36,077 nt of DNA from Promethearchaeota archaeon (GTDB lineage: Archaea > Asgardarchaeota > Lokiarchaeia > Sigyniarchaeales > SOKP01): the NCBI GenBank assembly GCA_019057355.1, contig DXJM01000002.1, positions 1-36,077 on the forward strand, written 5' to 3'. The notes under the pieces were generated by a model. It was not told the origin of the DNA. It made no database searches and saw nothing but the letters and a program-made list of their open reading frames with translations. The position numbers and the translations under genes are program-made. This document shows, piece after piece, positions 12,001 to 35,651 of this stretch (the first letter of the stretch is position 1; each line of letters begins with the position of its first letter).

Positions 12001-15000
12001 TTGAATGTCTCCCGTGCAAGTGTGAATCTTCACGGCATCTATGAGAAAGATATTTTCTTGTGCTTCGACGATGAACTTGTAGTAGAATTCTTCGGTACCT
12101 ACATTTATCAAGGGAACATCATTGACCCAACCCGTTGCCATGCAAGGGATCTCATCGAACTTCATAGAAGCATAGTAATTATCATAATGTTTGAACGTAT
12201 TGATTATTAAAGTCTTTTCATCAATGCTGTAATCCGTCGGATCTATCAATGTCAAGTTTCCCGAATCTTCATCATAACCATATAATTCGATGATATCGAT
12301 GAAGGCAGGATTGTACTGGAAAAGTTCATCCTTTAGATTTATTTCTTGAACCCCATAACCACTTGTCGGATAAAGCTTTACCATATCAACCGAAGGTCTA
12401 CAGGTCTTATAATCGGCTTTAAATATTGTATTAAGCACTTCAAACGCAAATTGTCCGCTCAAGAATTTTCCCCTGTGAACGCCATTAAAAAGAACCGTGA
12501 TGTTAATATATAAGTGATAATTACTATCAAAACATTCTTTTAAGGCGTCAAGGTTGATGAATCCTGACATGAGATCTATTGGTACCTCATATTCCGTGAA
12601 CAATCCCTTGAGATTTTCTACTTTATATGTACCTATCTTATCTACTATTTCTTGATTCCTACTCATTTTATGGAAGTGAATATTAATATCATAAGTGCTT
12701 TCGGAAACGATCACGTTTGGCAAGCCACCCAAGTCATTAAGAAATCCCGCACCAAGATAGAGTGTCAATTTAATATCAAATAATTTCAACTCGTCACCAA
12801 TTCCCAATTGTAATGGGAATAGGAGCCCGTCTGAAAACTCATGGGTGATGCTTCTCCCATTCTCAGAGTTATTGATGTAATGCACCACTGCTCGAATGGA
12901 ATCATATTGATCAAGATCAATCTCAGTTGAAAAATTAATAAAATCTACAAAACCATTTTCTTTGAAATGAACTCGGTATGGTTCCTTAAGGAAGTATGAC
13001 AGGCTCAATTCATGATTGCTATAAAAATAGTCCACACTGCCATTTGCGTGTATTCCTGCAACTTGCTCGATTATCGTTATGTTTTCATAATTGTTATCGG
13101 GATAAAAGACGGTATCAACCACGGGATCACGAGTTAAATTGCTCCAAGGCAAGGCTGTGAAAGAGAATTGGTCATAGATGAAAATGTCCGTGTTTGATAT
13201 ATACAGGAGCATTTCTGTCTTGTTAAAATACCATCCACTTGGATCGAGGACTTGAATCGTTGCGGGATTTTCCGTGATTCCGTGAACATTAACCACATGC
13301 GCTATGTCATCACCCCAAGAAAGTGATGATAAATTGAGGTATGGAGAGGAATAAGACGGTGCTTCATAAAGAGGTGAACTCAACACGTTCTTCTTGATCA
13401 CATTGGTTTTTCTATATGCTCGTGTATAAGAATATTCTTTTGAAAGAGAAGCGGAGACGCTCATCCTGCCCTTGGTCTCAAAATTATCATCGTACACGAT
13501 GTCCCAATGAGGTTTGACTCCAGAATTATCAAATGTTCCGGGTATGACGTGAGTCAATCCCAACAATGTTATAGTTGCTTCATTATTTATAAATGTAAAC
13601 AATTTATTAAAATATTGATATTCATTCCTCGATAATTTGAAAACAATAGTGCAGTTATCCTCTTCTATTCCTTCTGAATTTTCAAAATAGACATTATAGG
13701 AGTGATCAAGTTGTATGCGATCATAAGTATCAAGATAATGGTTATCATGATCCCAAATTATTTTATTTCCAGAATCATGATACGCATAAGCGATTCCATT
13801 ATAGGGTATCCAAGTAGTTCCACCAGAAGGATTATAAATCTTTAAATTAGGTCTCCATGACCAATTAACGAAGTTTTGTGTGCTCGCTTGAAAATTAATC
13901 TTAAATACCACGTCAGAAATATCATTTAGGTTGTTAATTGAAATATCAGGAAATGTTAAATTAAATGGTAATGCACTGGTAAATTCTTGTTGATGCCACC
14001 AACTTGTCGAATATTGATACATCGTGGTAAATGACTTGCCATTTCCTTCATCTGGCTTTAATTTTGGAATAATTCGAAAATCATTTATAATTGAATTGGC
14101 TGTTAAGATATTTGATTCATTACCAAAATTAGGATGAGATATCTTTGAATTTAAACCAAATGTAATTGATTTCGGACTAAATGAATTAGCAAGAAAAATT
14201 TCATTAATTGAATAAATGTCATTAGAATCTTCCTTAATCTTTGAATTATGACCTTCTAAATCACTTATATCAATCTTTGAATAATCATTTTTAACCACAT
14301 AAAATTTTTCAGAAGGGTCATTTTGGATTAATGTTCCAATGTTAAATTGATCCTCACTAATACTATCTTTAAAAGTAACAGGCTCACTTGATACACCCAA
14401 ATTTAACCTTACTTGATCTGCATTTAAATGTATGGTTGAATATGCATCATGCCAACATTGTTGAGTGTGAAGCTTGCCTCCGGAATAAGTAAAAGCATCG
14501 GTATATGCATACGCATTATACAAGTTCCCAAAGAAATCTTCAGTTCCAGATTGAAATATCCACTGATTTAAACCTACATATGTGCTAAAATGTCTATTCG
14601 AAGAATACCCTTGCCCGTTAACAGAAAAATAAATAGTTAAATCTTCGGGTCTATAACCGGTCCATTGACCCCAAGGCCATCCAGCAGAACGCATGCTTCC
14701 AAAATAATACGATACATCCAAATTTTTGATATAAACATTATCAACCGGAAGTGTCCTGGTAAATTCGAATGATAATAAGTTTAAATCAATGCCATATCCA
14801 CTTATAATAGCACAATAAACTGTTGTGCCATCATGAGCATATAATTGGTTATAATTAGAGGGATAACCACAAACCGTATGATGAATTGTCCCGGGATTCC
14901 ACTCGTATAAATGATAAGCAGGATCGAAATAGTTATTGGTTATTGAAGAATCACTTGTAGAATAATTAAAATCCGTCCACAATCTCAAGTCTTCAAAAAC

Positions 15001-18000
15001 AGTATCCATATTAATATCCTGAAATCCATCATTAAATGCTAAAATAACCTCCCTATTTGCTAAAGCGCTTGAAAAAGTCAGGTTATTTAAACTATTTCCC
15101 TCATTGACATTTACCTCTTTTGTGTATGAAAATTGAGAGGACCAATCAGGCACTCCACTAGTATATTCCACTTTCTTAAAAAGTTGGTTTTTAATTTCAA
15201 ATATTTCTAAGCCTGTATCAATATTATAAGATATTGTTAGATAAAGCTTATTACCAGAGTTGTCAAATTCTCCATTTAGTTCTTTATATTTTCCATTAAC
15301 GAAAAATTGCCAGGAATTAGTGCTATCATAGCATATTTCAATGGAATTCTTACCTTCGAGAAGATATTCGATGTCAGTAAAAATATAAGGTACTGATTCA
15401 CCGATGGTAAATTGAAGACCCTCGTAGATATCCTCAGGTTTATCAAACGTGACTATTGCCCTGTATTTTAACTTCTCATCTGCATCGATTTCGGATTTTA
15501 AAATTGGATGAATATCATCATGATTTGCTTGGATTCCACCTTTTTTCAATAAAAGACCGCTATTATCTACTAGTTCTGAATTACCATAATTAACAAGATC
15601 CCAATTATCATTATGTAAATTGTTCATATCAGAAAAAAGTATACATTGGAATTGTCTTATTCTCAATTCATTATTATAGTTTGCAAAACATCCATTAAGA
15701 GTTATTTTGAAAGTAATGGTATCATTACATATGAAATCATCTAAAACAGTTCGGGTGTCTAGTCTTAGGTAATTATAATCATAGATGTGAGTTTCGGTAC
15801 CATATATGAATTGAAATACATTATTTTCTTTTCTTTGGAATAATCCCTTGTTGATGTTGTTTGAATCGGGAGTGACCCAATCAGCCTTATGTTTGTTATT
15901 GTCTGGCTTGTAATAATTGGTATCAACTTTCGTATACTCATAATAATTATAATGATCATTAAAAACGTCAGAATAAATGGATTCTCCAAAATTATATGTT
16001 TTTTTATAGCTTCCATAATTTAATGCTTCGAAATAATCCTTCCCTTCATATTGAAAATTCTTCTCTTGTCCACCTTCAGTCAATAAACTGATTGTTATTG
16101 GTTGCTTGCTGTCTGCATTTATGATTTGGGCAAAAGCAGTCGAGATATAGATATAATCGATGCTCTCGGAATCTTCATTGTGATTGACATCAAAGGTAAT
16201 TTCAACAGAAACATTGCTTCCATCGGTCTTGTATGCACTAAGCACGTAGTCCTGTTCTGTAAGGGTATGGATCAGGTCATTTCCCGAGTAGTCATAAAGA
16301 CCATTAATGCTGACACCATCTTTAGCAATGGAAGGCTTGTAAGGGACCGTGCCTTCAACGGGAACAAGCGACTTGGAATTGATGTCTTGGATGAATGCAT
16401 CATAATCAAATCGATCAGTTCTAAAATCAGCTGAGACTGATTTTGATGGTTCTTCAACCCAGGTATCGTAATAACTATTATTGTAAAGGTACTGGTAATC
16501 TTCTGGATTGTAAAAATCTTGGCCCGACTCAAACTGGGAGAGAAGAGAGCTTGTTGACACGCTATTTCCGTTAAAATTAATAGGTCCATAATCCATTCTC
16601 AGGTTTCCAAATTCAGATAGCGTTCCGAAAGCGTCATAATTCGTCCAGCCGCTTGTAGTTATTGAGCCATCTGATAAAACATAAGGATATCCTGATATTA
16701 CATCAAAGTATTGGTAATTCCAATCTCCTGCTGAAGTCCCATATTTAAACGTGTAAGAATCATCTAACTTGTTATATAATTGGAATGCAAGCTCGTCAGC
16801 ATTCATGTCTACATTAGAAGCTGCTATGTTTCCAATATGTTGCACTTCCTCTTTTTTATAGTTTCCTGAAAGGAGACCATTCACAGTGGCGACCGTGGCC
16901 TCATAATAATATCTTACTTCATAATAGGTATTGGCATCCTCTTCATTTCGGGACTTCCAATTCCATTTATCATAAAAACATTCAAGGTTCCTCCTGTCTG
17001 AATTGATTCGATAGGAATCTTCATTAACTTGGCGTAAGGTATCCATAAAGTACATTCCAGTCTTGAGATTCTTGCTAAATTCAGTGATACTTATTATCTT
17101 GAAGATTGGATATTTTTTTAAAGGAATCAATGCAATCTGAGTTTGATTATCTGCAAGTGCATGTAAGTCCCATTTTCTAAAGTAATCTACTGCGTGATAA
17201 ATCGGTTTCAAATCTGTTGATATTACATCTGTAGCTATATATGTCTTGTGAATTCCCTTGTTAGAACCTAACAACGCATAATTGATATTATTTTCCTTTA
17301 AATGGGTGATTTGTCTTATCCTGAATTCATAAATTTCACTTGAAAAATCATCGTTCTGTGAATCAAGTGAAAATGATGTTTTATACCAGGTATCCGAGAA
17401 CTTGTCACGCAAGAAATAAATCACTCTATCGTCTTCATGATAGGTTGTCATTGAAATTCCCACTACCAAGGATTCTCCTAATTTCGTTTTAATTGACGTT
17501 ATTTCCACGACTCCACCTTTCCTTGCGTTTTCAAACATAAGAATCGAAGATTCACGAAGAAACATGTCAATGGAAAAAATGGAACTGTAAAGTTCTCCTT
17601 GGAATGTGTAAACCGATCCTACATATACCCTATCACCCATTATGTTCATCGCAGTTATAGAATTACCTACAGGAACTATATTTTGGGTAGCATTTTTATC
17701 TTGCGTTAATACTAAATTCTCGTCAAAATCGAGTCGAGCTATGAAACTCGCTCCTGTTGATTGTTCTGTTATTGTAACGTAAATTGTCAAGAACTCATTA
17801 TTCATATCATCAATGATATAATCGTTGAAGCGTGGATCTTGGAGCTTGAGAGAATATAAGATGTGTTCAAAACTGGTGATGTTTTGATTAAACTCAAACG
17901 TTTTAGATTGATGGTCAAACAAGTAAAAAGAAATGTTGTTGGAATCGGATTTTTTATTAAATGCGATCAAATCAGTATATCCATCCTTGTTCAAATCCAC

Positions 18001-21000
18001 GCTATTGATGACGTGAGATACCAATGATATTCCCATTTCGGATGTAAAATTAATGTAATATTGCTTGTTAGAAGCATTATATGAGTAAACGTATATCTTG
18101 CCCTTCAAATCAATAAGGAATGGTTGAAGAACTTCTGAACTGGAGAATATTCCATAACCCCCATGATAATACTGGGTATCAGGAGCATTATTTATTGTAT
18201 AATTCACGGGAAGATATCCGGATTCCATCGACAAGAGATCGTGATAAGTTTCATTGGAATCGATATTCCAATCAATCGTGAAATGACCATCACTTGTTTG
18301 CGCTGTACCAATAGGAACCCAGGCTTTCTTGGTAAAAGTATAATAGGACATCTCGACATTGATATTACTCTTGTCATCTTGAGAAGTCCATTCTTTTAAA
18401 TAACCATAAAATTGATAAGGTTCTTCGGTATAATTAACATCCTTAGAATAATAAATAATCTCCGCAAATGAGGTCGCATTTGATAAGGAGTACTGTCCTT
18501 CTTTAAAGACATATATATTTTGATAAACATTTTGGATATTACCAGCAAGATCTATAATTTCTGCCCGAATCGTAGAATATCCCTCGTTAAAATCTTTCGG
18601 GTTCAATTTTAAAAAGTAATAAGTGAGTGGATATGAATCAGGATCCATTGACATCATACCTATATAATGATCTGAGGCATTATATATCTTGATTTCCTTG
18701 ATATCGTTGAGGAACATGTACCCATTTTTGATGTAATAAGTTTCGGATGTCGAATTATACACGTAACCTGGAGTTAAATAAATCGTGGAATATTCCTCAT
18801 TGCTCGTGCCAAACATAATGTTTCCGATTCCATCATTCCATCCCAGAGCCCAATAATTACACTTGGTATCACCGTTTCCATCCCCTATTATCTTGCCAAA
18901 AACTCCCTCGCTTTTGAAGGGATCATATCTTGCTTTATAAATTTGGGTTGATATAATATTATCATGAACGTCCCTTGCCTCAATATGAAACTCAAACATA
19001 TCTCGCAAGTAATCTTGAGGGAAATCATAATGACGGGCAAATTGACCGTCATCATTGTCAAAACCCAATAAATTATCATGCCATTCGATGCTTTGATTGA
19101 TGAAATCCGAGATGTTAAAATCAGTTGATTGCCACGATTCACCATTGAACGTGAAAGTCTTTTTCCAGCCTAAATCACAGTGCACACCCTTTAGAATGAG
19201 ATCACCACATAAATATTCGATATATCGCTCGTCAAACGTGATTTGATTTAGCATTGAATCATAGAAGAAAGGTATGGAAACCTTTTGATCGGCTGAACAC
19301 ACCTCTTCAATGGCTATGATGTTAAGATCGATGAAGGGAATCGCTTGACTCCAACCACCCCAATAAATAATATTCTCGTAGATATATTCTCCATTGTCAT
19401 ACCATCCATCGTAAAATGAATAGGTCAATTGATATGGGTTGATATAAGTAGGCTTGCTTGGATTTTCAGAATATCGGCGCATCACGACTCGAGACCAATT
19501 TTTTTCTCCATTAATTAGTTCATATATGGCAGGATCTCCAAGAATCTTTGTTACATATAATTCTACTGAAGTAATCTCAGAGTTATCACTCAAAACCACC
19601 GTTATGTTTGCCTCGTCGCTGAAATAAATGAAGTCATCGGAAATGTCTCCATTAAATGAAAGGTTAATAATTGATGGAGCAATGTTGTCTACATATATCG
19701 TAACTGTAAAGTTGAAATATATACCACATATGTCTTGTCCGCTGAAGTGCAAAGTATAACTTCCATCCCCGAGTAAAGTAGAGTCTAATATCAAATCATT
19801 GAGACCAACAGGCAGATAGTAATAATGAGCTAACTCTATGGGATCGCCATCCACGTGGATGATCAACTCATTTAATGACTTGCTAAATAATGGTCCTTGA
19901 GAGTTTTTAAAGTGCATCAATCCAGAACCATTAAAGACGAGTCCACCATCAAGCAAGTCGGGATTGAATTCTAAGGGAGTTGAATCTAAAATTACAAAAA
20001 AGTCTTCTAAAATACTATTAAATCCTAGTTCATCGATTGCTGTTACCTTGATGTTACAGGTGCCATCCATCAATCCTGCATCATTAAGGTATAAAGTATA
20101 GGTGTTTCCACTAAACGTGATGTCATCGAGGTCAAAAAATTTCTTTTGAATGGAGGCTAATTTTAAGTTTTGTCCAATTTCATATGTCTTTTCCCACGAA
20201 TATCCAATGGCATCGAGATATGCTGTTCCAGTGGTTGTTCCTGGTGTGCCAAATATTATAGTAGTAAAATTTCCTGAAATACTTCCTTGATAACCATAAC
20301 CAGAACCTCCATCTTTGCTAATATTATCAACCCATAAATGCCAATCATTTCCACAATCAAACTCTATTTTCACATGATACCATGTACCTGCTGTATAAGT
20401 CATAAGATCATGATAACTACCATCATTATATCCATAATATCCTGTGCTCCTAAAATAAAAAGCAAGGTAATGACCACCTGCATCTGATAGCTTCAACCAG
20501 AGATCATCATTAGTATCTTCCATCATGATATAAAATTCTAATGATCCAAAATCATTATTTATTGTATCTTCTATTTTCACACCATAAACACTAGAATAAT
20601 CATATAAACAAACAGCCTTTTTATGACTATCATCAAATCCTACTACATTAACAGTCCCACCCATTTCATCTACAGTCCATCCTATTGGATCTTCCAGCGT
20701 TTCATCATCCTCAAAATTATACGTTCCGAAATAATAATTCCAATACCAGTTATCTCCAAGGACATAGTTTTCATCCCAGGAGTAGCCAAAAGCATCAAAA
20801 TAGAAAGAATAATCGGAATCAGTAGTAGATGTAAAAAACATCAATGAATCTATATAACTTGCAGGGGTATTAAAACACCCTTCACTTATTTTTAATATTC
20901 CATTAATATATATATCACAAGTATCATCGGAACAATCAAAGTCAATGTGGACGTGGTACCATGTATTAGCCTCAATGGTCTGCATTAAAATATAACTTGT

Positions 21001-24000
21001 TCCATCATGGTAGAGAAATTGATTATTCCAAATTTGGAATAATATTTTTTGATCCCCATTTTCTCTTATTCTCATGTAATTTGCTACTTTATTGATATTA
21101 TCAGTTCTAATCCAAAACTCTAAACTCCCAGATGTTTGACTTTCAAAATAATTATAGATTTCTGTAGAGTAGGATCCAGAGGTGTCATGCAATTCCAGGA
21201 CTTTTTTATGGGAATCAATTTCTGAGATAACCTTGACAGTTCCACCATTTTCTCCCACGATCCATCCATCAGGATAGCTATTGAGTTCATCATTAGTAAA
21301 GCTATAGGATCCCGGATAATGTCCGGAACAATCTATAGATTCAAGTTCTTGGGTCAATTCAATCTTGACTTGATCCACGCCATCGTAATCAGATACATCA
21401 AATGAAAGAGAGCCCGATGCAGGATCCACGTGGGTTCCATTTTCAAAAAGCGGAATAATAAAGGGACCTGCATGATCAATGAATAAATCCGTGAAAAATT
21501 TCTTGCTTTCTTGATTGTAGATGTCGAAAGCAGTCACCTCCAACACATATTCATCAGATACCAAATCTTCGACATTCAAGTTAATGCGGAAAGGATATTC
21601 TTCAATGAGCCCGTTTGAATAGGAATATTCCACGGTAACATTGTAGGCAGAAATTTCTTCCAGGAGTTCGGGTTTATTGTCATATTGGATGTAAATGTCT
21701 GTCGTGTTACCCTTTTTGTCAAAATAATAGAATAAATCATCTCCTTCAATGATTCTATCAATGCGTGAGTCCGATATATCATAATCAATCAAGAGCCGAG
21801 TAATTTCGACAACATCTTGAGGATATTCCGTTAATTCTAATATTTTTTTTTCACTCGTACTGGTAGATGTTGGAACGAGCGTGCTCGCAACATTATTTGA
21901 ATCGATGTTTGGTATTAAATCATATTGATAATGATTGTTAAACCGTTTCCCGTGGAATTCTAGGGTGGGATGCTTGTTGAAATAGGGATATCCATCACTA
22001 TTATTATAATTACTGTTTACATCCAGGTAAATCGCACTGGAACTATTAAAGACAATCTCATAATGAGCATATTGATCTATCTTTAAATCGCCAATGGATA
22101 TCTCCGTGTCTTTTGTAATTACCATCGTGATTGGTATTGTTTTCGTTATGAGATGTGAGTGTTGATCCCACAGTCTCAGGGTCAACATTTGAGAATCAAG
22201 CGCTTTTAATTCCAGTTCAAAATCGTTGAGATCAAACTGGATTGATGCCCAGAAGTAAATTCCTCCTCCTGAATAGGTTCCTTTACGTAATTGATATAAG
22301 GTTTCTCCACAGGTTATGCTTGCCAGCTGAATGTCCTGGGCAATGGGGATCACTTCAAAAATAACGGGATCGAGGATGTTGTAGACTTGTTCGCTGGAAT
22401 ATCCCTTGAGTTGCACGTCAGAATATAAGTTCATGTCATGCTTGAATGATAATTCTACTGAGGGTCCAGAGTTCCCAAGGTTATCATATCCCACTAGTCT
22501 CAATACAATATACGAATCGGGAATTTTACCTATGTTCCACGTGAATCGCTCACTGGCTTGGTATGTTTTTGAATGCCACCTGCCACCCTTGCCGTAATCA
22601 TACCATAATCGATAATAAGCAAAATCTGAAGCACTTGATTCCACATCACCAGATATTATGCAATCAAATTCATTTGGTTCAGTCCAAAATCCTGCCTTTT
22701 GTTCTATTTGATAAAGGTTATCATTTATATTTGGGATAATGCTAATGCTCGGTCCATTGCAGTCAAGACAAACTCTTTCTTTAGTCACGTTAAATTTGCG
22801 AGTTCCAAAATACAAGTAATTTAATTCAATCTCAACAAGAATATCAAATGTCACTGTATCTGTCCAAGGCAAGTTAATGAAAGGCGCTGAAAATTCAGGG
22901 GATGGATCATCATTGATTAAAAACCAATCATCATCATTTTCCTTCTTGACGAAAAATCTCGTTCGTTCAACAAAAGATTCTGTCACTGAATCAAGTTTAA
23001 GCAATACTTCATCGAGATAAATTACATTATCTTTGACAGTTATAACATCGTCAAAATTATTTATTGATAATACATGATCGAAAATATCAAATCCATCAGT
23101 CAAACCACCATTTGAACCTTCCGCAATCAAATACCAAGTACCATTTGGAATCTTGGCAGTGCTTAAAATGTGATAGAAAGATTGATTGGGGCTGGAAAGT
23201 TCAGCAACTAGGATCCAATCATCCTTGTTTTCTTCAGTTGGCAAGACGTCGTGCATGTAATATCTTACCTTCGTTAACGGAAGCTGACCAAGATTAGTGA
23301 TCGACATCTTAATATAATCCGATACAAATTTGTCATAATTTATATCAAGCCAATCACCCGTTCCCTCGTTTAGTTCACGCACTTTGCATGTTACTTCGGT
23401 GGGATCATTGGATATGACAATTTTAGAGATAGTTTTATTTCCCGTTAGACCCTTGTTGTCGTGCATTACCACGTACAATCCGTAATTAAATCCATCTTGG
23501 AATTGCGTGGTATCCAACAAGAAGGAGAAATAAGCTTGACCATCTATATATTCAAATTGGGTTTTATTCGCAATGAGATTATAACTTTGGTCTATCAAGT
23601 ATAGGGCGGCCCATTCATAATCATCTCCAGGAGCTCTCACTTGCACGTCATATTCTCCACATATGATGTCATCGTCATTGATATTAACAAATTCCTGAAA
23701 TATTTCTTTTTTAATAAATTCAAACTTGAATGAGTCGATCAAGACACCCCACTGATTAGTGAATGTCTTTTTATCCGTGATGTAATATGAATCAAAGAAT
23801 TCAGAAATGAGCTTGACTTGAATGGAGTTAGTAGCAGTCAGGATATGATCTCCATAGAAATACAATTTAATCGGTTCATTCAAGTGATAATATATCTCTC
23901 CATTTGATCCTATTACGTTAATAAAATCGTTGATATTAAGATCCTTCATTTTTATAACCGCGTTGGAATATTTGGAGAAGATTTTAATTCCAAACTGATC

Positions 24001-27000
24001 ATAAATCTCAAACTTAAATTTCATCATTTCATCTTTGAACTCTTCGAGAGCTTTCTCAGTATCCGAACCATTAACATACCTGAAATAAGGATATACATCC
24101 AGAATTGCTCTTAAATTGTAATTACTTGTGTCGATGCATTCCAAATCGGGCGTGACCAGCCCCGTTCGTCCCATAAGCTCTTCTCCATCATATAATGATT
24201 TGTTATGATAATCTCTATACTCCACGCAATCATACAAGTGAATGTTTATCTTATTTAAAGATTGAGCAGGGGATATATTTATCAAATTATTTAGGCTCGT
24301 GGGCAAGTAACGATAATAACATCCATCAAAACCTGCTGGATAATATCCATTACTATAAGAATACATCGAAATGAAATCATTTCTACCATCAACATCAAAT
24401 TGAAAGTCTCTTAACAAGGACATCCTTGCTTGTTTAGTTTTCCTTTCAAAAAAGGATAACGGTTCGGCATTGTCAAGCAAGGCTAAGTTTTGCGATCTCA
24501 TCTCCGATGTCGAGTTCCATATAGTTGTCAAGAAGAAATCATTGAAGAACACGTTAAGACCGTTTTGAACACCATAATCCTCAAAATTAAGCGTTTTTAA
24601 ATAAAACTCGAAAATAATATACAACTTCTCATTACCATCATTGAGCAAGTTTCTAATTTCTTCAAATAATGATCTTTTCTCATCTTCAGATAGAACAAAA
24701 TATGATTCCTTATTGTTCACTATCACCTCATTAGTTTCAAGATTAAAATAATAAAAGAGATCACCAAAATCCTTAGTCCATTGGCGTTTGAATTTAAGAT
24801 CGGATATCTTATAACCACTCCAACTGTCATATACCAACTCATCAGGAATGACAAGATCTGGACTTTTTTGAGCCTCCAATAATAAAGACATCTTGCAAGA
24901 GATTCTTGATGATGGTGAAAGGGTCAAATTTTCAATTTTTTTATCTAAATAACCAAAAAGATCGAAATCAACCAGGATATCTGCCTTGTTATCTGAAGAT
25001 TCCATATAATCCTCATCATTTAAGAAATCCAATTTATCTTCTGATACGACCGTAGTTATCATAAAACTACTTTCTGCATACTTGGTTTCTCCAGATTGAG
25101 TGATTACTCCAAATGAATTCGATTCTAATTTATCATCATCCTCTACATCAATCCTTAATGTTTCTATTTTAAGGTGATAATCTTGGTTTTTATTTATTCC
25201 ATAATATCTAACCTTTACTTCATTATTAGCATTGATGAAACATGAATCTAATTCATATGATTTTTGGATAAAAGAATCATAATTGCTATCATCAATAATA
25301 TCCCATGCAGATACTTCATTATTCCAGACCATAAAGTCGATAGGTTGGGAAACATCTGTCATATGAGAATATTTTAATGATACTTTTTCTGGAGTATCGA
25401 AACTATCTTCAATTTTAATGGTAATTTCATAATCAATTTCAGCATAATCAAAATTTGTATAATAAATTGTTGGAGTGCAAAGACCTGCATGTATTTGAGA
25501 CATCCATCCTACATTGAAGCCAAAAATGATCATTCTTACATTACCAGAAGAGAGTTCAGATTGTGTTATGTGCAATCCACTCCAGGTGGGGTAATTATCA
25601 CAATCCCTTCTACCTCTGTAGACACCATTTTCTGTCAAGTCCAATTGGATGGCTCCACCCCAGAGAGTCCAACCCCATACAAAATAATATTGAATTTGAT
25701 ATATGTATCCATCTAATCCCAGATCATAGTTCGCAATTGAATAAGAATCTGCTCCCAATTGTCCCATTCCACGTATTAATACATAATCATCATTGTACAA
25801 AATGCAGTATCGATTGTAAGCAGCGCTTGCTAACCAATACTCCCAACCACTATATCCCGGTGGTGTAACTGGTCCTGAGCTAGCATAAAGCGTGGCGGAA
25901 TCAAAATTTTGATGATATTCGGTAGAAGTAATTGCGGTATAGTTCCCATTAATAGCACTAAGATCCCCGTGATTGTCAATTGATTTACCTTCTATCAAAT
26001 TATCATTATTTGGAATATATGAATATGAAGGATATACTTCAACTTTTACCTTATCTAATATTAAATTGAAAGGCTGATTTGTATTGGATCCTGTCATAGA
26101 TAATAGAATTTTATAATTTTCATTGAGATGTGCTTTTTCAATATCAAATGTCCAGTCTTGAGCATAGGGAAAAGGGCGATCATCAATCAGTTCCCACTCC
26201 AAGGTATTATAGTTCCATATCTTGAAATTTATGGATTGGGTAATGTCAGTATAATAACTATAATGCAAGAGTGCTTCATCCAAGTATTTTGAGAATCCAG
26301 GACCAATCATAATGCTTGATATGATTTCCAAGTTGTAAGGTGCCGCTGCCTGAGTAGATGATATTATCGTGGTTTCGCCATCAATCACAGCTAGATCTCC
26401 TGATTGGGAGTGGAAACCTTTTTTTATTTCCATTTCATCAGGATCGGCAGCTAAAAGAAGCAATTTTCTTGGAATGATTTCAAAGGATACGTCCACATTA
26501 TCTATGCCTAATTGATATCGGTCAACATCTTCGGTTCGATTGAGACTCCAATCATCTTTTATGACATTAAAACGCAAGACATAGTCATCTTCAAAATAAA
26601 TAGGATCTTCTAGCGAAATCTCGAAGGGAAAGATGTTTTCTTGTAATTTTGGGTCGATGGCTATTAATTGAGAGTAGGTAAGATCTCCCGTGGGCAAATT
26701 ATTATAATATCTTAAGTAGCGGGGATAATATGATGCAATGGTATCTTGAAGCCAGGTAAGGAGTTCTTGCGATTGCCAATCAGAATCAAGGAGGATTGTC
26801 TGGGTTCCACTAATGTCCAGAGTAACCAAGAACCTCAGTTGATCTTCTGCTTCAAGAAGGTCATTAACAAAATCACCTAGATTGACATCAAAATAGATGC
26901 TCATGTTAGCTTGGTACTTGTCTTTATTATAAATAAGAGGTTTGAAATCAACCCAAAGCGTGCTAAACGTGGTGAGGTCCGCTCTTTCGCATGTCGTGTA

Positions 27001-30000
27001 TTGAACCATCCAATCATCATCATTCTCGCTGTTTGCAAAAGTGAAAAATAGACCATCAGACCAGAAAGACTCAGGATTGCGTTCTATTGAGTTGGAACTG
27101 TCTTTCACGACAAAAGGTCCGTAAAGATCACCAAGAATCTGGTATCCCTCGATGTAATTTCGTCCTTCATAATAATCTTCAGACCAAGAGAAATCAAGGG
27201 CATCAACATAACCAGTGAATCCCGTTGGGGAATTGTCGGTCTCAACCTGGAAATAAGTTGATTGGTTTTGATTTTGATAAAATGTGAATGTACCGAGTTT
27301 AATACCATTCACATATAAATGGTAATAATATTGACTCAATCCCTTATAATTACCATTCGTGCATTCAAAATCTATACGAAAATGATACCAGGTGTTTGGA
27401 GATCCTGTCATTCCTGAATCATGCCAACCTGATGAGTCGAGATATCCAATTTTATTTATTCCCAAGTAAACTTGAGCTAATCTATCCTCATCATTTTTAA
27501 TACCGGCATACAAATATTTTGCGCTTGTAGCGGTATTTGTTCTCATCCACCATTCGACTGTACCATTAGTTTGAGAAGTATATGTTTTTTTTAATTTAAT
27601 TGCTGCAGAACTGCTCGTGTCATCTAATTGAACAACTTTTCTATGTCCATCAATATTTTTAATTACATTAACCGAACCTCCGTCTTCAATGACAATAAAT
27701 TCTTCGGGATTTTCACCATCCTTGTCATTTTTAAAAGAATATATCGCGGGATAATCTTGGCTCGATTCAACACTAAACACATTTTCTTGAATTTCATTAT
27801 TTCTACCTTCATAATACCCTTCAGACCATGAATAATCAATTCCATCAATATATATTGAATAAGTATTTGGAGAATCGGTTCTTGAATGGATAGTTAACTT
27901 TCCAAAACTCGTGGGGCTACCCCAAAACTCATAACCATTTCCTTCATCAATGGAATTTCCATCTATCCATAAATGCCAGTCATCAGAAAGATCAAATTCT
28001 AATTTAAAATGATACCAACGATTGGCAGAAAACGGCATAATAGTATGCCATGATCCATCAAAATATTTAATATTGCCCGTCTCATCCATATATAAATAAA
28101 GTGAATCACTCGTAGAACCATCCTCAAGAGTTATATAACATCTATCGCTAGTAGTAGACATTCTCCACCAAAATTCAATCGTTGCTTTTGATATTTCATT
28201 CCATTCTTGAGACATTAATATCATATTAGATGTACTAGTATCTTTCATTTCGATCACATTACTATGCCCATCTAATTTCTTAATAATATCAATAGTCCCA
28301 CCTGTCTCATCGATGGTAAACATTGATGGATTTACTCCTGGATCCTCATAATAATCAGGATAACCAATATAATGACCTGAATCAATTTTTGGATCAAAAT
28401 ATAGATATTGAATCTTCCATTGTTCTTGCTCACCAATCTTTTTGGACCTGACTTCATAAGCAATGAAGATTGTATTATTAAATGCGTTATTTATTATTGG
28501 ATTAAGCATCTTGTAATATTCATAGTCATAATATTCTGTAAGGTCAGAAATGACCGATCTTTCCTGCAATTTATGTTGTTGGGAGTCGTATATGCAATGT
28601 TTGAACAATATTTCAGAAAAGTTTTCATTAAATGAGCTTGAATAGATTACATTCAATCGACCAAAAAAATCATATTTGAGATCTGCCTCGTTAGAGTTTT
28701 TTACATCAAAAAGGTCTTTCGAAACAGGGATGTCTTCATAAAAATTAAACATATCATCAGATACGTCGATATACACGTATCTTGAATCCTCATCAATCCT
28801 GCTCTCAAAAGAGACAGCAAGCTCTTTTTTAACATAAGATATACTAGTCAATAGTTCTTCCGGTAATTTAAACTCATCTTCAGTATATTTTACATAAAAA
28901 CAACAGTCTTCAATTTGCTCATCGTGAAACATTATGTTGATGTCATTATTACCATATGATCCAATGATTGAATAATTATTTCGATTCAAGCGAATAGCCA
29001 TATCTTCCACTTGGTCATAATCGAGTGGAGTGGGACTTATAAAGATGTCCTTAATTTTTTTTAAAGATGACGTACTCGAGTCGAGCAGTTCAGCAAGAGA
29101 ATAAATTTGAATATTTTCATTAAAACTACTTGATATCATCTTGTATTTTCTAGGGTCGTAAACGTCATGAAATTCATAATCATCAGGTAAAATAATCCTA
29201 TTATTTTCAAATTGAAGTGATTCAGGACCAAACTTAGTCAAGAAATCATTTTTGGAGTCAAATAATATTGTCTCAGTGCCAAATACATCTTTAACAGCGA
29301 TAGAGTTCAATTTATAAATATCATTGCTCGAATCAATCATTACATTCCAATTCCCATCGTATTTATATACCCTATCACTTATGCTTCCAAAAATATACCA
29401 TTCTCCATTTTTATATTGAATATCATAAGGCATCATATCTTCTGAACCAATGTAAAATGACTCGCCAGTGTAATTCCAAGTCCCATCATATTTAAGAACA
29501 TTTTTGGTCATCATATCAATGATATACCAATATGAACCATTCTTGTAAATGGAACCAGGTATAATTTCGCTAAGATTGTAGGCTTCACCGGAATACTCCC
29601 ATTGAGAATTGTATTTATAGACAGAAGATGTATTTAATCCAACCATCCACCAATATACTCCATCAAAAAATATATCCCAAGGCATAGGATCTTCTTGGGT
29701 TAAATCGTGTGAATCATCTTGATAGTTCCAAAGCTCATCATATTTACACGCGGTAAAGTTTGGATATCCGAGAACCCAATAATATTGCCCATCATGAGCT
29801 AAAGAATAGGGGTGTTGTAATTGATCACCCATATAGCGATTTTCCGATTCATAAGCAAATTTCTCATCATATTTATAAACATTGCCACTATCAAATCCCA
29901 AAATCCACCAGTCATCACCATCAGGAATTATGCCATATGGATCTGAGGTTTGATCATTAAGTAAGTAGGATTTTGCTCCAAACCAATCGAAATATAATTC

Positions 30001-33000
30001 CGTGCTGTTTTCAGCAATAATGGATGTATTTAGATACAGTGCTGTACTTGCTTCTGGTGATTCTATTTTTGCATCATAATTTACGGAATTTTCTTGATTA
30101 TCATCAATTCTTACAGGTTCAATAAAGACACCTCCGTTATAGCTGCTATCCAATCGAGCATAACACACGTGCTTTTTAATATCATTTGGGTTTTCATTAT
30201 CTCTTGAACCATTATCCATATTTATCCACGTTGTATTTTCAAAAATGAGGTGAACGATGCAATCTTGAGTTAGAACATTTCCATCTTCGTCATACTTGAT
30301 ATCTCGCGGTGTAATTGCAATATCTGGAGCAAGATAAGAGTGATAGTCAAGATCTGAAGGATCATAACTGACTACTTCCTTGATTTCTTCAAGCATAAAA
30401 TCAAATAAACTAATTCGACCATAATATATTGACCATTCTGTTTCTCCTTGAGAGTGTTGTTCAGTGTTCCTTTGCTGCCAAGTAAGGTGCAAGTCAGTTT
30501 CCGATAAAGCCATTGATGGTGCTAACTGGTAGGTATTGTCATCACCTGATTCATAAATTCTCTTGGGTGTTGAAAATTGACCATCAGGACGATATGCCCA
30601 CGTAAGATAAATTTTCCATAAATCCTCCTCGTTAAATTTTCCTGAAAAGAGAATAATGATCAAATTATTATTTGAAACTATCTTGGGCACGACATATCTT
30701 TGCCGAATTTCGTTAGTTATTGAATCTGAATCACCGAGACTCACGAATTCGTCCAAAATTTCACTTCCATAAGCATCAGATACATTGATGGGCATTCTGG
30801 AACTTTGAAGATCAAACACACCCATACCATTACCTTCCACCTCCCTCCACGTTGGGGGCATGTTAACACCATTAGAGGGGGAAAATATGGGATTTTCATA
30901 AGCATCTTCTGAAAATAATCCGCTGAAGTATTTCCACGAATTATCCTGTCGGAAATCATTGTAGAAATAGTTATTAGTAACAATTCCAGGATACTTGTTA
31001 TAAGATAAAATTTCATTTCCTAACGTAAGTGGATTATCAAAAGTCCATAAAAGAGGCTCTGCCGTGCCTAAGAGAGGGGAACTAAATTCATTATACCCAT
31101 CCTCAAATTCAAAACCTCGATAGTAAGTCGGTGGATAATTCACTTCTAAATGGGCATAATCAAACTTAATTTCGATTAGATCATTACTATCGACAATGTT
31201 ATCATAAATCAAATTAATGATAATTTTAATGCTAAATCTTTGTCCTCCTTCGGTGAAGAAATCCCTAAGATCTACATTCACTACTTCCCAACTCGAGGTT
31301 GTTGAAGTGATTGGTTCCTGAAAATGGACTTCTTCATGGACTAAATATCCGTTTCTAATCAATTGTGTCTTTACCAAACCGGTGATCTGATCTGAACCAC
31401 CATTAATGATTTTCACCATATCATAACTTAATTTAAACTTCGCGGAATCGGCAATCGTTCCAATATAGGTCAAAGTAGGACTTTCAATAAATACATTTTC
31501 TGAGTTTGAAATGGTCCTATAGATATAATCAGGATTTCCAGAATATTCAGTGAAAATTGGAGATTCTGTCCATGAAATTTCGTTATTATTAAATTCATGA
31601 TGGTAAATTAAGGCACTGGTGGTTTGGAATTCATTCTTGTTAAAAAAATTAATATCAGTTCCGTTCGTAGTTCTTTGAATCTCATTTATTTCTTGATAAC
31701 TCGTGTGTATATACTTATTTTTAGTTATCTCACAATCTTCGATATGGGAAGTGGTCTTGTAAAATGCATTTTGTTCCCCATTAAAAAAGATTTTACCTTG
31801 GGTATATTCTTTGAACCTGCTATAAGTAAGATGCTTGTAAGAGATTATACCATCAGGTCCAATTTGATAATCTGTCAATTTTTTAAATACTGGTTTTAAA
31901 CCTTCACGTTCTGTTATATACAATGAGACTTCCCCTTGAACTATTTCCTGTAAAGAATTTTCCATTCGAGTATTAAAAAAGTTGTTCCACCCCAACCCAT
32001 CATTATTTTCTTCGCAATAAATGCTCCCTCGAGGATAAATTAAATCTGATTGGTTAAGATTGTTTGAATCTAAATTATCATAATAAGGATTAAAATAGAT
32101 TTTATCTTTTTGAATATCAATATTAAAAACAAGTGGATCAGAGACCTTGCCCAACGTGAGCAGTAAATCCTGAACCCAGTACACTTGCATTTCATAACTC
32201 CCGGGTATAATATCCCTCTGAACGTCAGTGAAATCTATTTCGAGAACCACTAATTGTTTCAAGAAAGGAGTGCGAAGGGTTTTAGAGGTCAGAATATGAT
32301 TCATCCGGAAAAGATCTGAATGTTCTCCTTCTAAGTATATTTCTTTGGCAATCAGTTTCACGACCAAGGTGCGAGCCTCAAAAATCCCGATGGATACTTG
32401 AGGAATTCTCACAAGTAAAAGGCCATTAAAAGTCAAATCTGTAAGATTTTCAGGTGATTTGTAAAAGATTAGAGAATTAACATCATATGAATAATCTTGA
32501 TTATTTCTATGATATTGGGGCGCAACCGTAAATTCAACATCGGGTTGCTGGAGTGCAGTAAGCGTTCCTGGGAAGCATCCAATAAGGAAAGGAAAGATCA
32601 TTAAAAAGAGTACCACCATTATGGCTAAAAGTTTTTTTCTATATTCTATTTTTGTATATTGTTCGGGAGTCTTCCAGGGATGGGTGATTAAGTAGATTTG
32701 GTTCTTAAATGAGTCCATAGATGAAATACCTTTTTTTCGAATCAAGTCTGCCCGTCGATTCGATTTAAGGCGCGATCGGGGAAAGAAAATGCCGATAATG
32801 CCTGCCATAATGAAAAAAGAGGTTACTGATAACAAGGTATCATAATAGGCAAACAAAAAGAAGAGCAATAAAAAGGAACCGATAAACAAGGTTATAATAC
32901 AGATCACGTATTTTATGGTATCATAAACATCCTTTGCTGAGGATATCATCGTTCTCCTTAAACTTTTCCTCTTTTTAAATCTCTTTTTCGATAATATCCA

Positions 33001-34827: not shown

Positions 34828-34836
34828 TTTAATCTT

Positions 34837-34841
34837 TCTCC
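34837..34841 (-). promoter_or_regulatory. Shine-Dalgarno-like GGAGA, 9 nt upstream of the giant-gene ATG
   Basis: The reverse strand reads ...AAATGGAGAAAGATTAAAATG. No other canonical start codon lies between the upstream in-frame TAA (34888-34890) and this ATG. Confidence 0.5.
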
Positions 34842-35276: not shown

Positions 35277-35285
35277 AAAAAAAAA
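35277..35285 (-). terminator. T9 tract immediately after the winged-helix gene stop codon (possible oligo-T termination signal)
   Basis: The reverse strand reads TAA-TTTTTTTTT-ATC. Only a weak 4-bp hairpin (AGAC-TTCAG-GTCT) follows it. Confidence 0.25.
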
Positions 35286-35651
35286 TTAGGTAGAAGAGAA
35301 TAAGGTTTTTTCCCGTTTAATGTTACAATTTGTTTTGCTTTCCCTGTCTATTAGAGATGCCAGAGTGGGATTCAACTCGTTTTTTAAATGAGTTAAACCT
35401 GATTGAGAAATAAAATTTTCTTTCCGTTTATTTCCTGGTTTTTCTGATGCTTCATAATTCCTTAGAATAAGTTCTTTATCCTCTAAAAATCTTAGAACAT
35501 CATTGATTGTTGTTTTACTTCTACCGATGATATTTGCGATTTCCTCAACAAAAACACCTTTATTCGCCCCATAAACCTGATAACGATTTTTTAAAATAAT
35601 AAGTACCCTCAAGCTTACTGATAACGAAAGATTAAATCGTTTTACTCCCAT
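35286..35651 (-). CDS. Winged helix-turn-helix transcriptional regulator (ArsR/MarR-like fold), 121 aa
   Basis: This ORF is in the track. LRVLIILKNRYQ...GVFVEEIANIIGRSKTTINDVLRFLEDKELILRNYEASEKPGNKRKENFISQSG reads as helix, turn, recognition helix and beta-wing, followed by a charged C-terminal tail. It is on the same strand as the giant gene and directly upstream of it. Confidence 0.7.
   Translation of the reverse strand: MGVKRFNLSLSVSLRVLIILKNRYQVYGANKGVFVEEIANIIGRSKTTINDVLRFLEDKELILRNYEASEKPGNKRKENFISQSGLTHLKNELNPTLASLIDRESKTNCNIKREKTLFSST

What the first reader, a model, noticed from the sequence alone, without database searches (positions are those of the whole stretch)
32572..34827. 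Unusual anchor: an N-terminal 4+4(+1) TM polytopic module with a 395-aa cytoplasmic loop, fused to the giant ectodomain
Giant surface proteins normally begin with a simple signal peptide or a single TM anchor, or they carry C-terminal secretion signals. Here the first ~750 residues contain nine hydrophobic segments.

The basic loops (N-terminus, RVSRSKSK, the 395-aa loop, SKKRFKKRKSLRR, PRSRLKSNRRADLIRKK) all fall on the same side if the N-terminus is inside. That topology puts the >=10,850-aa remainder outside.

A large cytoplasmic domain wired through the membrane to a megadalton ectodomain suggests signalling, gating or an assembly/export function rather than passive anchoring. I do not recognise the family.
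Basis: partly seen in the sequence, partly recalled or inferred. Interest (0 to 1): 0.75.

Follow-up and report, generated by a model that had tools for sequence, protein, structure and literature searches.

The report
Multi-pass membrane anchor of giant archaeal protein
The first 752 residues of a giant (more than 11,600-residue) surface protein from a probable Loki-type Asgard archaeon cross the membrane nine times; five of the helices are an anchor shared with related giant proteins, and the other four, plus a 394-residue cytoplasmic domain, match nothing in any library searched.

Summary
One minus-strand ORF starts at ATG 34827 and is still open at window position 1 (11,609 codons). Two hydrophobicity scales find nine membrane-spanning segments in aa 1-752 and none in the next 10,857 aa. 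Lys+Arg near the membrane is 44/117 on the proposed inside and 1/36 outside. That places the N-terminus in the cytoplasm and the acidic 1.26-MDa remainder outside.

The ectodomain has relatives (40-45% identity) in Loki's Castle and other sediment metagenomes and in a Promethearchaeota MAG. Most of them carry only 4 TM + a basic linker + 1 TM, which corresponds to TM5-TM9 here. This membrane part evolves fast (19-22% identity) and matches no transporter, insertase or SecA family. It behaves as an anchor, not a machine.

The first 559 aa (TM1-4 plus the 394-aa basic, helical loop) have no homologue in any library searched, including 1.84 billion representative proteins. Codon usage there is native and the frame is clean. 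No evidence bears on signalling or export. The extension joins the conserved anchor at an A8 run, so a one-base indel (real or artefactual) could have made the fusion.

Verdict: a new variant of a membrane-anchored giant surface protein, of moderate interest.

The parts
34825..34827 (-). ATG start codon of the giant ORF. A GGAG ends 10 nt upstream, and an in-frame stop lies 21 codons upstream.
34642..34827 (-). aa 1-62: basic N-terminal tail, predicted cytoplasmic (net charge +8).
34333..34641 (-). aa 63-165: first 4-TM bundle (TM1 63-81, TM2 86-103, TM3 118-141, TM4 146-165). It forms two tight hairpins with 4-residue outer turns, and is not found in any relative.
33151..34332 (-). aa 166-559: 394-aa cytoplasmic loop (46.6 kDa, pI 9.78). 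It is predicted to be mostly helical and has no homologue, Pfam family or catalytic motif.
33150..33157 (-). A8 homopolymer ending in the ATG of Met560, at the junction between the extension and the conserved anchor. One A fewer would split the ORF into two overlapping genes.
32782..33150 (-). aa 560-682: second 4-TM bundle (TM5 560-579, TM6 590-612, TM7 641-660, TM8 664-682), with the basic inner loop SKKRFKKRKSLRR. It corresponds to the 4-TM unit of all relatives.
32638..32781 (-). aa 683-730: basic cytoplasmic juxtamembrane linker. It holds the few invariant residues of the anchor: the Pro after TM8 (IPNS in relatives, FPRS here), a Lys five residues further on, and a Lys-Asn (KN) pair.
32572..32637 (-). 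aa 731-752: TM9, the last helix, acting as a signal-anchor that leads into the ectodomain (consensus LxIFPFxLG in relatives).
1..32571 (-). aa 753-11609: acidic ectodomain, still open at the window edge. There are no further TM segments and no detectable internal repeats. It starts with Ig-like beta-sandwich domains (aa ~765-915, pLDDT 70-84) and has a Sialidase-like CBM at aa 4604-4668.
35286..35651 (-). 121-aa winged-helix regulator gene upstream on the same strand. Its weak matches are to TrmB, MarR and Lrs14 (the first and last are archaeal regulator families). It is not similar to the divergent wHTH gene that accompanies the relatives.

Best explanation
This is the membrane anchor of a giant cell-surface protein from a probable Promethearchaeota (Lokiarchaeia-type Asgard) archaeon.

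Core anchor. The family-wide unit is TM5-TM8 (two tight helical hairpins), a ~48-aa basic cytoplasmic linker, and TM9.

How it most likely works (inferred):
- The first hydrophobic helices to leave the ribosome recruit SRP and dock the ribosome on the Sec translocon. Archaea have no SecA.
- The hairpins insert with both ends in the cytoplasm.
- TM9, preceded by its basic linker, acts as an uncleaved N-in/C-out signal-anchor. It starts co-translational translocation of the >=10,857-aa acidic ectodomain.
- The multi-helix bundle then holds that 1.26-MDa ectodomain on the single membrane of a cell type that, in cultured relatives, has no ordered S-layer.

Extension. This copy has gained a second 4-TM bundle and a 394-aa basic helical cytoplasmic domain in front of the core. 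The addition is an even number of helices, so the topology is unchanged. The addition probably came from a rearrangement or a one-base indel at the 5' end of the gene that fused an upstream membrane-protein gene to the giant. Its role is unknown; most likely it is an accessory cytoplasmic domain that the anchor does not need.

Shown versus inferred. Shown: nine TM segments, charge asymmetry, homology of the ectodomain, architecture of relatives, orphan status and native codon usage of the extension. Inferred: the SRP/Sec route, lack of cleavage after TM9, the mechanical anchoring role and the fusion origin.
For: - Nine hydrophobic segments lie in aa 1-752 and none in the next 10,857 aa.
- Lys+Arg near the membrane is 44/117 inside and 1/36 outside. 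The ectodomain has pI 4.36 and the loop pI 9.78.
- The ectodomain (aa 753-2752) matches P0001-P0004 at 40-45% identity with E = 0 to 5.5e-208. Two of these are Loki's Castle sediment contigs.
- Fifteen loci hold relatives, including MAG Promethearchaeota archaeon YT1_007.
- Eleven of these relatives have 4+1 TM (P0001, P0002, P0004, L009, L011, L012, L013, L015, L017, L019, L020). The five of them that were scored (P0001, P0002, P0004, L009, L020) show Lys+Arg of 14-25 inside and 0-1 outside.
- L006-L008 have 4+4+1 TM with a 140-aa N-terminal soluble domain. P0003 has about 6+4+1. The window aligns to all of them from TM5 onward.
- The anchor is 19-22% identical between the window and its relatives, against 29-34% for the adjacent ectodomain (41% mean of all pairs). 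No member matches a consistent Pfam family, and there is no PDB relative.
- The extension is coding, with 0 stops against 25-56 in other frames. Its synonymous codon usage is native: -0.993 per codon against -0.985 +/- 0.045 for ectodomain windows.
- The residues just after TM9 fold as Ig-like beta-sandwiches (pLDDT 70-84), with only generic Ig-like Foldseek matches.
- Context: the cultured Loki archaeon 'Ca. L. ossiferum' has a single membrane with no ordered S-layer and with complex protruding surface proteins (PMC9834061).
Against: - No dedicated topology predictor was run, and no experiment exists.
- TM6 is marginal by hydropathy (dG +2.44).
- The window's organism is not identified directly. 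Only its relatives are placed in Promethearchaeota.
- A 46.6-kDa hydrophobic-rich helical domain kept in frame is unlikely to be functionless, so 'passive anchor plus accessory' may undersell it.
- The C-terminus lies outside the window, so a second anchor or a cleavage product cannot be excluded.
- A few invariant residues in the cytoplasmic linker hint at a binding partner. So does a small upstream ORF whose stop overlaps the giant's start in relatives (suggesting translational coupling). The family anchor may therefore not be purely passive.
Confidence: 0.6

Rival explanations
1. The cytoplasmic loop, possibly together with the conserved juxtamembrane linker, is a working coupling domain. 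It would link the giant ectodomain to cytoplasmic partners such as the cytoskeleton, a chaperone or targeting factor, or a signalling protein.
For: - The loop is 394 aa, rich in hydrophobic residues (Ile 10%, Leu 9%) and predicted helical rather than disordered.
- It is kept in frame with native codon usage.
- Other family members also carry variable cytoplasmic add-ons, such as the 140-aa N-terminal domain in L006-L008.
- Relatives have a small upstream ORF whose stop overlaps the giant's start. The window lacks it, so the loop could replace it.
- Omnitrophota giants carry a cytoplasmic SecA-like domain between TM helices.
Against: - The loop was seen in no other sequence; phmmer against 1.84 billion representatives found nothing.
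- It has no Pfam or NCBIfam domain and no nucleotide-binding, zinc or catalytic motif.
- AF2 pLDDT is below 50 throughout the loop.
- An HMM of the small ORF finds nothing in the loop.
- Most relatives do without any such domain.
Confidence: 0.15
2. The fusion is not real in the cell, or is only one mutation old. In reality there are two overlapping genes: a 563-aa membrane protein (4 TM plus a cytoplasmic domain) and a canonical giant that starts at Met560. A one-base error or mutation in an A8 run joined them.
For: - The junction is an A8 run that ends in the ATG of Met560 (window 33150-33157).
- With one A fewer, the upstream frame stops 4 codons later, 14 nt past that ATG.
- This is the overlapping layout of the small ORF and the giant seen in relatives.
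- The window's 5' region is rearranged compared with relatives: a different wHTH gene, no small ORF, and an IS630-type transposase just outside the window.
Against: - The 34.8-kb ORF has 21 homopolymer runs of 7 or more bases and 7 runs of 8 or more, and none breaks the frame.
- A protein starting at Met560 would have no basic residues before TM5. The in-frame flank KEKIKSFAKSKK resembles the flank in P0002 and P0003.
- Two other lineages also carry in-frame extra TM helices.
- The added helices number four, an even count, which keeps the topology.
Confidence: 0.08
3. TM9 with its basic linker is an internal signal peptide that is cleaved. The ectodomain would be released or handed to another anchor, and the eight-helix part would stay behind as a leader or pro-domain.
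For: - A basic n-region, a hydrophobic core and then the ectodomain is the layout of a signal peptide.
- The C-terminus is not in the window, so a C-terminal anchor remains possible.
Against: - TM9 is 22 residues long, which is long for a signal-peptide core.
- No small-x-small cleavage motif is conserved after TM9 in the family. The conserved residues there are PxP...ALVPQ (my reading of the alignment).
- Cleavage cannot be tested with the tools available here.
Confidence: 0.1
4. The polytopic module is a transporter, channel or insertase (YidC-like or Sec-like) dedicated to exporting its own ectodomain.
For: The only support is the number of helices and the analogy with the SecA domains of Omnitrophota giants.
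Against: - No Pfam, NCBIfam or PDB match was found. The five members each give a different sub-threshold hit.
- Identity in the TM region is near random, and the only invariant positions there are one Leu and the Pro after TM8, with no charged or polar residue in a helix.
- The number of helices varies from 5 to 9 to about 11 among close relatives.
Confidence: 0.03

Closest known systems
Unnamed family of giant proteins in Promethearchaeota (Loki) sediment genomes: LCGC14_0824170 and LCGC14_0963220 (hypothetical proteins), MAG YT1_007 contig JAEOTA010000068.1, and JGI contig Ga0326314_1000038
   Same: - The ectodomain is homologous, at 40-45% identity over the ~41-44% of the 2000-aa query that aligns.
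- The layout is the same: 4 TM, a basic linker, 1 TM, then PxP..VPQ and Ig-like domains.
- G+C is similar (32-33%).
- At least one relative is just as large (>=11,779 aa on Ga0326314_1000038).

   Different: - The window copy has an extra 4-TM bundle and a 394-aa cytoplasmic loop found in no relative.
- It lacks the small upstream ORF whose stop overlaps the giant's start, and the divergent wHTH gene.

Giant Omnitrophota proteins with numerous TM helices and SecA DEAD domains (West-Roberts et al., bioRxiv 10.1101/2023.11.21.568195)
   Same: Both are giant (>10,000 aa), largely extracellular proteins with several TM helices and cytoplasmic sequence between them. Most of their sequence has no recognisable domain.
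   Different: - Those proteins are bacterial.
- They carry detectable SecA DEAD and preprotein-binding domains, and their TM helices are spread along the protein.
- Here no SecA domain is found, all nine helices lie in the first 752 aa, and the organism is archaeal.
Type II signal-anchored proteins with large C-terminal ectodomains (for example eukaryotic teneurins) and single-TM anchored giant periplasmic proteins such as TamB/AsmA-like proteins (from my own knowledge, not tested here)
   Same: Both have an N-terminal cytoplasmic part, an uncleaved N-in/C-out helix, and a very large C-terminal domain outside. The best Foldseek matches of the first ectodomain include Ig-like domains of teneurin, at E of about 0.02-0.04, which is not significant.
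   Different: Those proteins have one TM helix. Here there are five (family core) or nine (this copy). There is no sequence or fold relationship.
Ordinary archaeal surface proteins with an N-terminal signal peptide and a C-terminal TM anchor (seen next to the relatives: a 456-aa SBBP propeller protein on L002 and a 383-aa protein on L006)
   Same: Both are surface-exposed, membrane-tethered proteins encoded in the same kind of genome.
   Different: Those proteins have the opposite anchor polarity and a single helix. In the loci read here, only the giant family has a polytopic N-terminal anchor.

Membership tests
Promethearchaeota giant-protein family (P0001-P0004, L006-L020) | Homologous ectodomain starting right after the last TM helix | tested here: met
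   40-45% identity, E = 0 to 5.5e-208. The alignment is continuous from TM9 onward.
Promethearchaeota giant-protein family (P0001-P0004, L006-L020) | N-terminal 4 TM + basic linker + 1 TM, N-terminus inside and C-terminus outside | tested here: met
   TM5-TM9 of the window align with the 4+1 unit of relatives. Charge bias is the same in the relatives scored.
Promethearchaeota giant-protein family (P0001-P0004, L006-L020) | Small (75-96 aa) upstream ORF whose stop overlaps or abuts the giant's start | tested here: not met
   An HMM of 10 copies scores the copies left out of it (on L010, L014 and L016) at E 1e-24 to 1e-36. In the window nothing scores better than E 5, and the open frame just upstream of the giant scores E 6.6. 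This is a locus feature, not a feature of the protein.
Promethearchaeota giant-protein family (P0001-P0004, L006-L020) | Divergently transcribed 115-150 aa wHTH gene upstream | tested here: not met
   The L003, L004 and L020 copies are 33-40% identical to each other. The window's 121-aa wHTH is on the same strand and has no BLAST similarity to them.
Cleavable Sec signal peptide at the N-terminus | n-h-c region within the first ~35 residues | tested here: not met
   The first hydrophobic segment starts at aa 63, after a 62-aa basic tail, and eight more TM segments follow.
Omnitrophota-type giant proteins with SecA domains | SecA DEAD helicase or preprotein-binding domain in the protein | tested here: not met
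   A Pfam scan of all 11,609 aa and an NCBIfam scan of aa 1-4942 found no SecA family. There is no Walker A or DEAD motif in the loop.
Omnitrophota-type giant proteins with SecA domains | Numerous TM helices in a giant, mostly extracellular protein | tested here: met
   Nine TM segments are present, but all of them are N-terminal.
Known transporter, channel or insertase families (Pfam, NCBIfam, PDB) | Significant profile match, or conserved polar or charged residues inside the TM helices | tested here: not met
   No hit reaches a curated cut-off. In the TM part the only invariant positions are one Leu and the Pro after TM8.
Four-TM families such as MARVEL or tetraspanin | Profile match to the family | tested here: not met
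   The Pfam scan of aa 1-800 and of the five aligned anchors gave no such hit. This was tested by sequence only; the fold model was too poor to compare.
C-terminally anchored archaeal surface proteins (PGF-CTERM/archaeosortase or a C-terminal TM helix) | C-terminal sorting signal | not testable with these tools
   The ORF runs off the window at position 1. All relatives held are also truncated at the 3' end.

The most novel reading that the evidence does not exclude
In an Asgard archaeon without an S-layer, the 394-aa cytoplasmic domain, together with the conserved juxtamembrane linker, physically couples a 1.26-MDa surface protein to cytoplasmic machinery. The partner could be the lokiactin cytoskeleton or a dedicated targeting factor that replaces the small upstream ORF of relatives. 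This would be an integrin-like link across the membrane in the prokaryotic lineage closest to eukaryotes.
Probability: 0.08. Interest if true: 0.85.

Novelty: new variant of a known kind. Interest (0 to 1): 0.45.

Why it matters
Cultured Loki-type archaea have a single membrane with no ordered S-layer, covered by large unidentified surface structures. These structures are thought to mediate the cell-cell contacts invoked in models of eukaryote origins (PMC9834061).

This locus defines a family of giant proteins of at least ~11,600 aa in such genomes, and shows how they are probably held in the membrane. The holder is an N-terminal bundle of helical hairpins followed by a signal-anchor helix. 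Extra helices appear to be added in even numbers (four here and in L006-L008, probably six in P0003), which keeps the topology.

This gives candidate genes for the surface densities seen by cryo-tomography. It also gives a simple, testable rule for the anchor. The 394-aa cytoplasmic domain of this copy is the only part that could connect the outside to the cytoplasm, but nothing yet shows that it does.

Tried and rejected
Searches with the N-terminal module or its extension, none of which found a relative:
- k-mer/HMMER search of aa 1-760: 0 hits.
- phmmer of aa 1-800 against 1.84 billion representatives: 0 hits.
- GTDB genomes with aa 1-760: 0.
- Viral contigs and phage records with the extension or the loop: 0.
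- tblastn of aa 1-560 against all 19 loci fetched up to that point: nothing below E = 6.

Other dead ends:
- The profile search with alignment A1 in the 5.8-billion library returned nothing, not even the members of A1. The 8000-candidate prefilter was probably swamped by TM-type words. That search was wasted.
- Pfam, NCBIfam and PDB sequence searches of the module, the loop alone, the small ORF and the L007 N-terminal domain gave only sub-threshold noise.
- AF2 on aa 1-760 as a single sequence gave mean pLDDT 44.6 and below 50 across the loop. I did not fold-search that model, because the matches would be meaningless.
- AF2 on the 5-sequence alignment gave usable confidence only for the first ectodomains. 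Foldseek against PDB returned generic Ig-like matches, none at E <= 0.001.

Ideas tested and rejected:
- TM1-4 as a duplicate of TM5-8. BLAST gave E 0.15. An HMM of nine 4-TM units scored 0.4 bits, and 11 of 300 block shuffles did as well. Duplication is not shown.
- The loop as a fused copy of the relatives' small ORF. The HMM finds nothing in the giant's frame.
- Foreign origin of the extension. Its synonymous codon usage lies within the range of the ectodomain.
- More N-glycosylation sequons outside than inside. The ectodomain has 124 against 113.6 expected from composition, which is not informative.
Full report
**What is there**

A single ORF on the minus strand starts at ATG 34827. It has an in-frame stop 21 codons upstream and a GGAG ending 10 nt before the ATG. 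It stays open down to window position 1, giving 11,609 codons with no stop. The finding's coordinates (32572-34827) are aa 1-752 of this protein.

**Check of the observation**

Kyte-Doolittle hydropathy and a simplified Hessa biological scale, used as unweighted 19-residue sums, agree. Exactly nine segments qualify in aa 1-752:
- TM1 63-81
- TM2 86-103
- TM3 118-141
- TM4 146-165
- TM5 560-579
- TM6 590-612
- TM7 641-660
- TM8 664-682
- TM9 731-752

None qualifies in the remaining 10,857 aa, where the best window scores 4.18 kcal/mol against <=3 for all nine. TM6 is the weakest at +2.44.

The outer turns are only 3-10 residues long. With the N-terminus inside, Lys+Arg within 15 residues of the membrane is 44 of 117 on the inside and 1 of 36 on the outside. 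An eight-helix model that drops TM6 breaks this rule, with 13 Lys+Arg outside.

The loop between TM4 and TM5 is 394 aa (46.6 kDa, pI 9.78). The part after TM9 is 1257 kDa, pI 4.36, with net charge -897. The first 559 codons have 0 stops in frame, against 25-56 in the other five frames and about 45 in shuffles. The remaining limit is that no dedicated topology predictor could be run.

**Homology of the module**

The first 760-800 aa have no detectable relative or family:
- Pfam and NCBIfam: nothing above cut-off.
- PDB sequences: nothing.
- k-mer/HMMER search: 0 hits.
- phmmer against 1.84 billion representative proteins: 0 hits at E <= 0.001.
- GTDB genomes: 0.
- Viral contigs and phage records: 0.

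**Relatives of the ectodomain explain the module**

The stretch aa 753-2752 matches four proteins at 40-45% identity (E = 0 to 5.5e-208). Two are 'hypothetical proteins' from the Loki's Castle sediment metagenome (LCGC14_0824170 and LCGC14_0963220).

A profile of the conserved region found 14 metagenome loci and one GTDB genome, 'MAG: Promethearchaeota archaeon isolate YT1_007', with 32% G+C. The window has about 33% G+C. Its neighbouring regulator gives weak matches to TrmB, MarR and Lrs14, the first and last being archaeal regulator families. The source is therefore very probably a Loki-type Asgard archaeon. This placement is inferred from the relatives and is not shown for the window itself.

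**Architecture in the relatives**

- P0001, P0002, P0004, L009, L011, L012, L013, L015, L017, L019 and L020 begin with a short basic tail, four TM helices in two hairpins, a ~50-aa basic linker and a fifth TM helix. The ectodomain follows at once (PxP..ALVPQxFRR).
- The five of these that were scored (P0001, P0002, P0004, L009, L020) have Lys+Arg of 14-25 inside and 0-1 outside.
- The window aligns to them from TM5 onward. TM5-TM9 is therefore the family anchor, and aa 1-559 is an addition.
- Two other lineages also carry additions. L006-L008 have a 140-aa soluble N-terminal domain and 4+4+1 TM. P0003 has about six extra helices: 11 by Kyte-Doolittle and 10 by the Hessa sums, and 11 is the count that satisfies the charge rule.
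- The additions are even in number where the count is firm. An even number is what keeps the ectodomain outside.
- The additions show no similarity to one another.

**Anchor or machine?**

Between the window and its relatives, the TM5-TM8 region is 19-22% identical and the linker 14-18%. The adjacent ectodomain is 29-34% identical, and 41% as the mean of all pairs. The only invariant positions in the membrane part are one Leu, the Pro after TM8, a Lys and a Lys-Asn pair in the linker.

The five aligned anchors each give a different sub-threshold Pfam hit, and a profile search of PDB finds nothing. The number of helices changes among close relatives. This pattern fits a structural anchor and signal-anchor. 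It does not fit a transporter, an insertase or an enzyme.

The first residues after TM9 fold as Ig-like beta-sandwiches (pLDDT 70-84 in a shallow-alignment AF2 model). The Foldseek matches are generic only, such as transglutaminase C-terminal barrels, macroglobulin domains and pilins, and none reaches E <= 0.001. Further along there is a Sialidase-like CBM (E 9e-10, aa 4604-4668). The rest has no Pfam domain, and BLAST of the protein against itself finds no internal repeat.

**The extension (aa 1-559)**

- It is coding.
- Its synonymous codon usage matches the rest of the gene: -0.993 per codon against -0.985 +/- 0.045 for 559-codon ectodomain windows.
- The loop is basic, rich in Ile, Leu, Lys and Asn, and predicted mostly helical, but pLDDT is below 50 throughout.
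- It has no Walker, DEAD, zinc or other simple motif and no Pfam match on its own.
- TM1-4 cannot be shown to be a copy of TM5-8: 0.4 bits against an HMM of nine 4-TM units, and 11 of 300 block shuffles do as well.

No evidence bears on its function.

**Locus context**

In relatives, a 75-96 aa ORF lies immediately upstream, and its stop overlaps or abuts the giant's start. L003, L004 and L020 also share a divergent wHTH gene, 33-40% identical among them.

The window has neither. An HMM of the small ORF finds nothing better than E 5 in the window. The window's wHTH gene is on the same strand as the giant and is unrelated by BLAST.

A 2.2-kb ENA contig is 99.7% identical to window 35084-36077. 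It shows a DDE_3 (IS630-type) transposase gene just beyond the window. The 5' end of this copy has therefore been rearranged.

**The junction**

The extension meets the conserved anchor at an A8 run that ends in the ATG of Met560 (window 33150-33157). With one A fewer, the upstream frame would end four codons later (...KSKKWQFF*). That would give a 563-aa membrane protein overlapping a giant that starts at Met560, which is the overlapping layout seen in relatives.

This suggests the fusion arose by a one-base indel. It also leaves a small chance that it is an assembly error. Three points argue against an error:
- None of the 21 homopolymer runs of 7 or more bases in the ORF breaks the frame.
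- A start at Met560 would leave no basic residues before TM5.
- The in-frame flank KEKIKSFAKSKK resembles the flank in P0002 and P0003.

**Most likely mechanism**

The steps below are inferred unless a call is cited.
- The first helices target the ribosome to the membrane through SRP. Archaea lack SecA, so export is co-translational (established knowledge).
- The hairpins insert with both ends inside.
- TM9, with its basic linker, acts as an uncleaved N-in/C-out signal-anchor, and the ectodomain is threaded out as it is made.
- The helix bundle then tethers the 1.26-MDa ectodomain to the single membrane.

Cultured Loki archaea lack an ordered S-layer and display complex protruding surface proteins (PMC9834061).

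**Comparison with what is known**

- Giant Omnitrophota proteins also combine numerous TM helices with cytoplasmic sequence, but they carry detectable SecA domains (bioRxiv 10.1101/2023.11.21.568195). None is found here.
- That paper also notes that Asgard archaea hold most of the archaeal proteins above 10,000 aa.
- A survey of huge proteins lists 12 in Lokiarchaeota; for the commonest archaeal architecture it says the function is not understood (PMC11573180).
- None of the papers I found and read describes a polytopic N-terminal anchor of this kind.

**Verdict**

The topological inference is supported. The functional inference (signalling, gating or export) is unsupported. The object is a new variant of a membrane-anchored giant surface protein: a family-conserved 4+1 helix anchor plus a lineage-specific extension of four helices and a 394-aa domain. 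Interest is moderate.

Noticed in passing
L002 5031-5348, L003 928-1155, L005 3956-4231, L009 521-799, L011 174-452, L012 665-922, L013 4443-4721, L017 231-509, L019 1244-1522, L020 9705-9995; absent from window 34828-35285: Relatives carry a conserved 75-96 aa ORF directly upstream of the giant gene (motif FAKRQIxSYQKK...HPExK..YIxxINxLIxxERGE). Its stop overlaps or abuts the giant's start codon, which suggests translational coupling. It has no significant Pfam match. The window has no copy; the open frame just upstream of the giant scores E 6.6.
   Followed up: partly
L003 203-550(-), L004 58-414(-), L020 8806-9258(-); window 35286-35651(-): Three relatives share a divergently transcribed 115-150 aa wHTH gene (33-40% identical to each other) next to the giant locus. 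The window's 121-aa wHTH gene is on the same strand as the giant and shows no BLAST similarity to them.
   Followed up: partly
window 35084-36077; L001 1240-2233: An ENA contig (ERZ925045, run DRR027590, PRJDB3255, labelled 'fossil metagenome') is 99.7% identical to the right end of the window. It shows a DDE_3 (IS630-type) transposase gene immediately beyond the window.
   Followed up: partly
window 33150-33157 (-): An A8 homopolymer ends in the ATG of Met560, exactly where the extension meets the conserved anchor. One A fewer would give two overlapping genes.
   Followed up: yes
window 1-32571 (-): BLAST of the 11,609-aa protein against itself finds no internal repeat at E <= 1e-5. This is unusual for a giant surface protein. 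Only one Pfam domain passes its cut-off in 10,857 aa.
   Followed up: partly
window 20824-21018 (-), aa 4604-4668: A Sialidase-like CBM domain (PF22585, E 9.2e-10, 39.1 bits against a cut-off of 27) is the only curated domain hit in the ectodomain. There is also a sub-threshold FG-GAP match near aa 5610-5650.
   Followed up: no
L002 5320-10467 and 10518-20467: The relative on JGI contig Ga0326314_1000038 is split into a 1715-aa ORF and a >=10,064-aa ORF about 50 nt apart. This is either a frameshift or stop in the assembly, or a pseudogene. Together they make >=11,779 aa, and the gene runs to the end of the 40.7-kb contig.
   Followed up: no
L006 3217-, L007 1161-, L008 6392-: One sub-lineage of the family has a 140-aa soluble N-terminal domain with a CxxC pair (SDCRVC), followed by 4+4+1 TM helices. 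This domain has no Pfam match and no similarity to the window's extension.
   Followed up: partly
L002 1486-2856(-), L020 4030-5304(-), L006 1740-2891: Genes near the giants in relatives encode SBBP beta-propeller repeat proteins and one other protein. The L002 and L006 products end in an ordinary C-terminal TM anchor. In the loci read, the N-terminal multi-pass anchor is therefore specific to the giant family.
   Followed up: no
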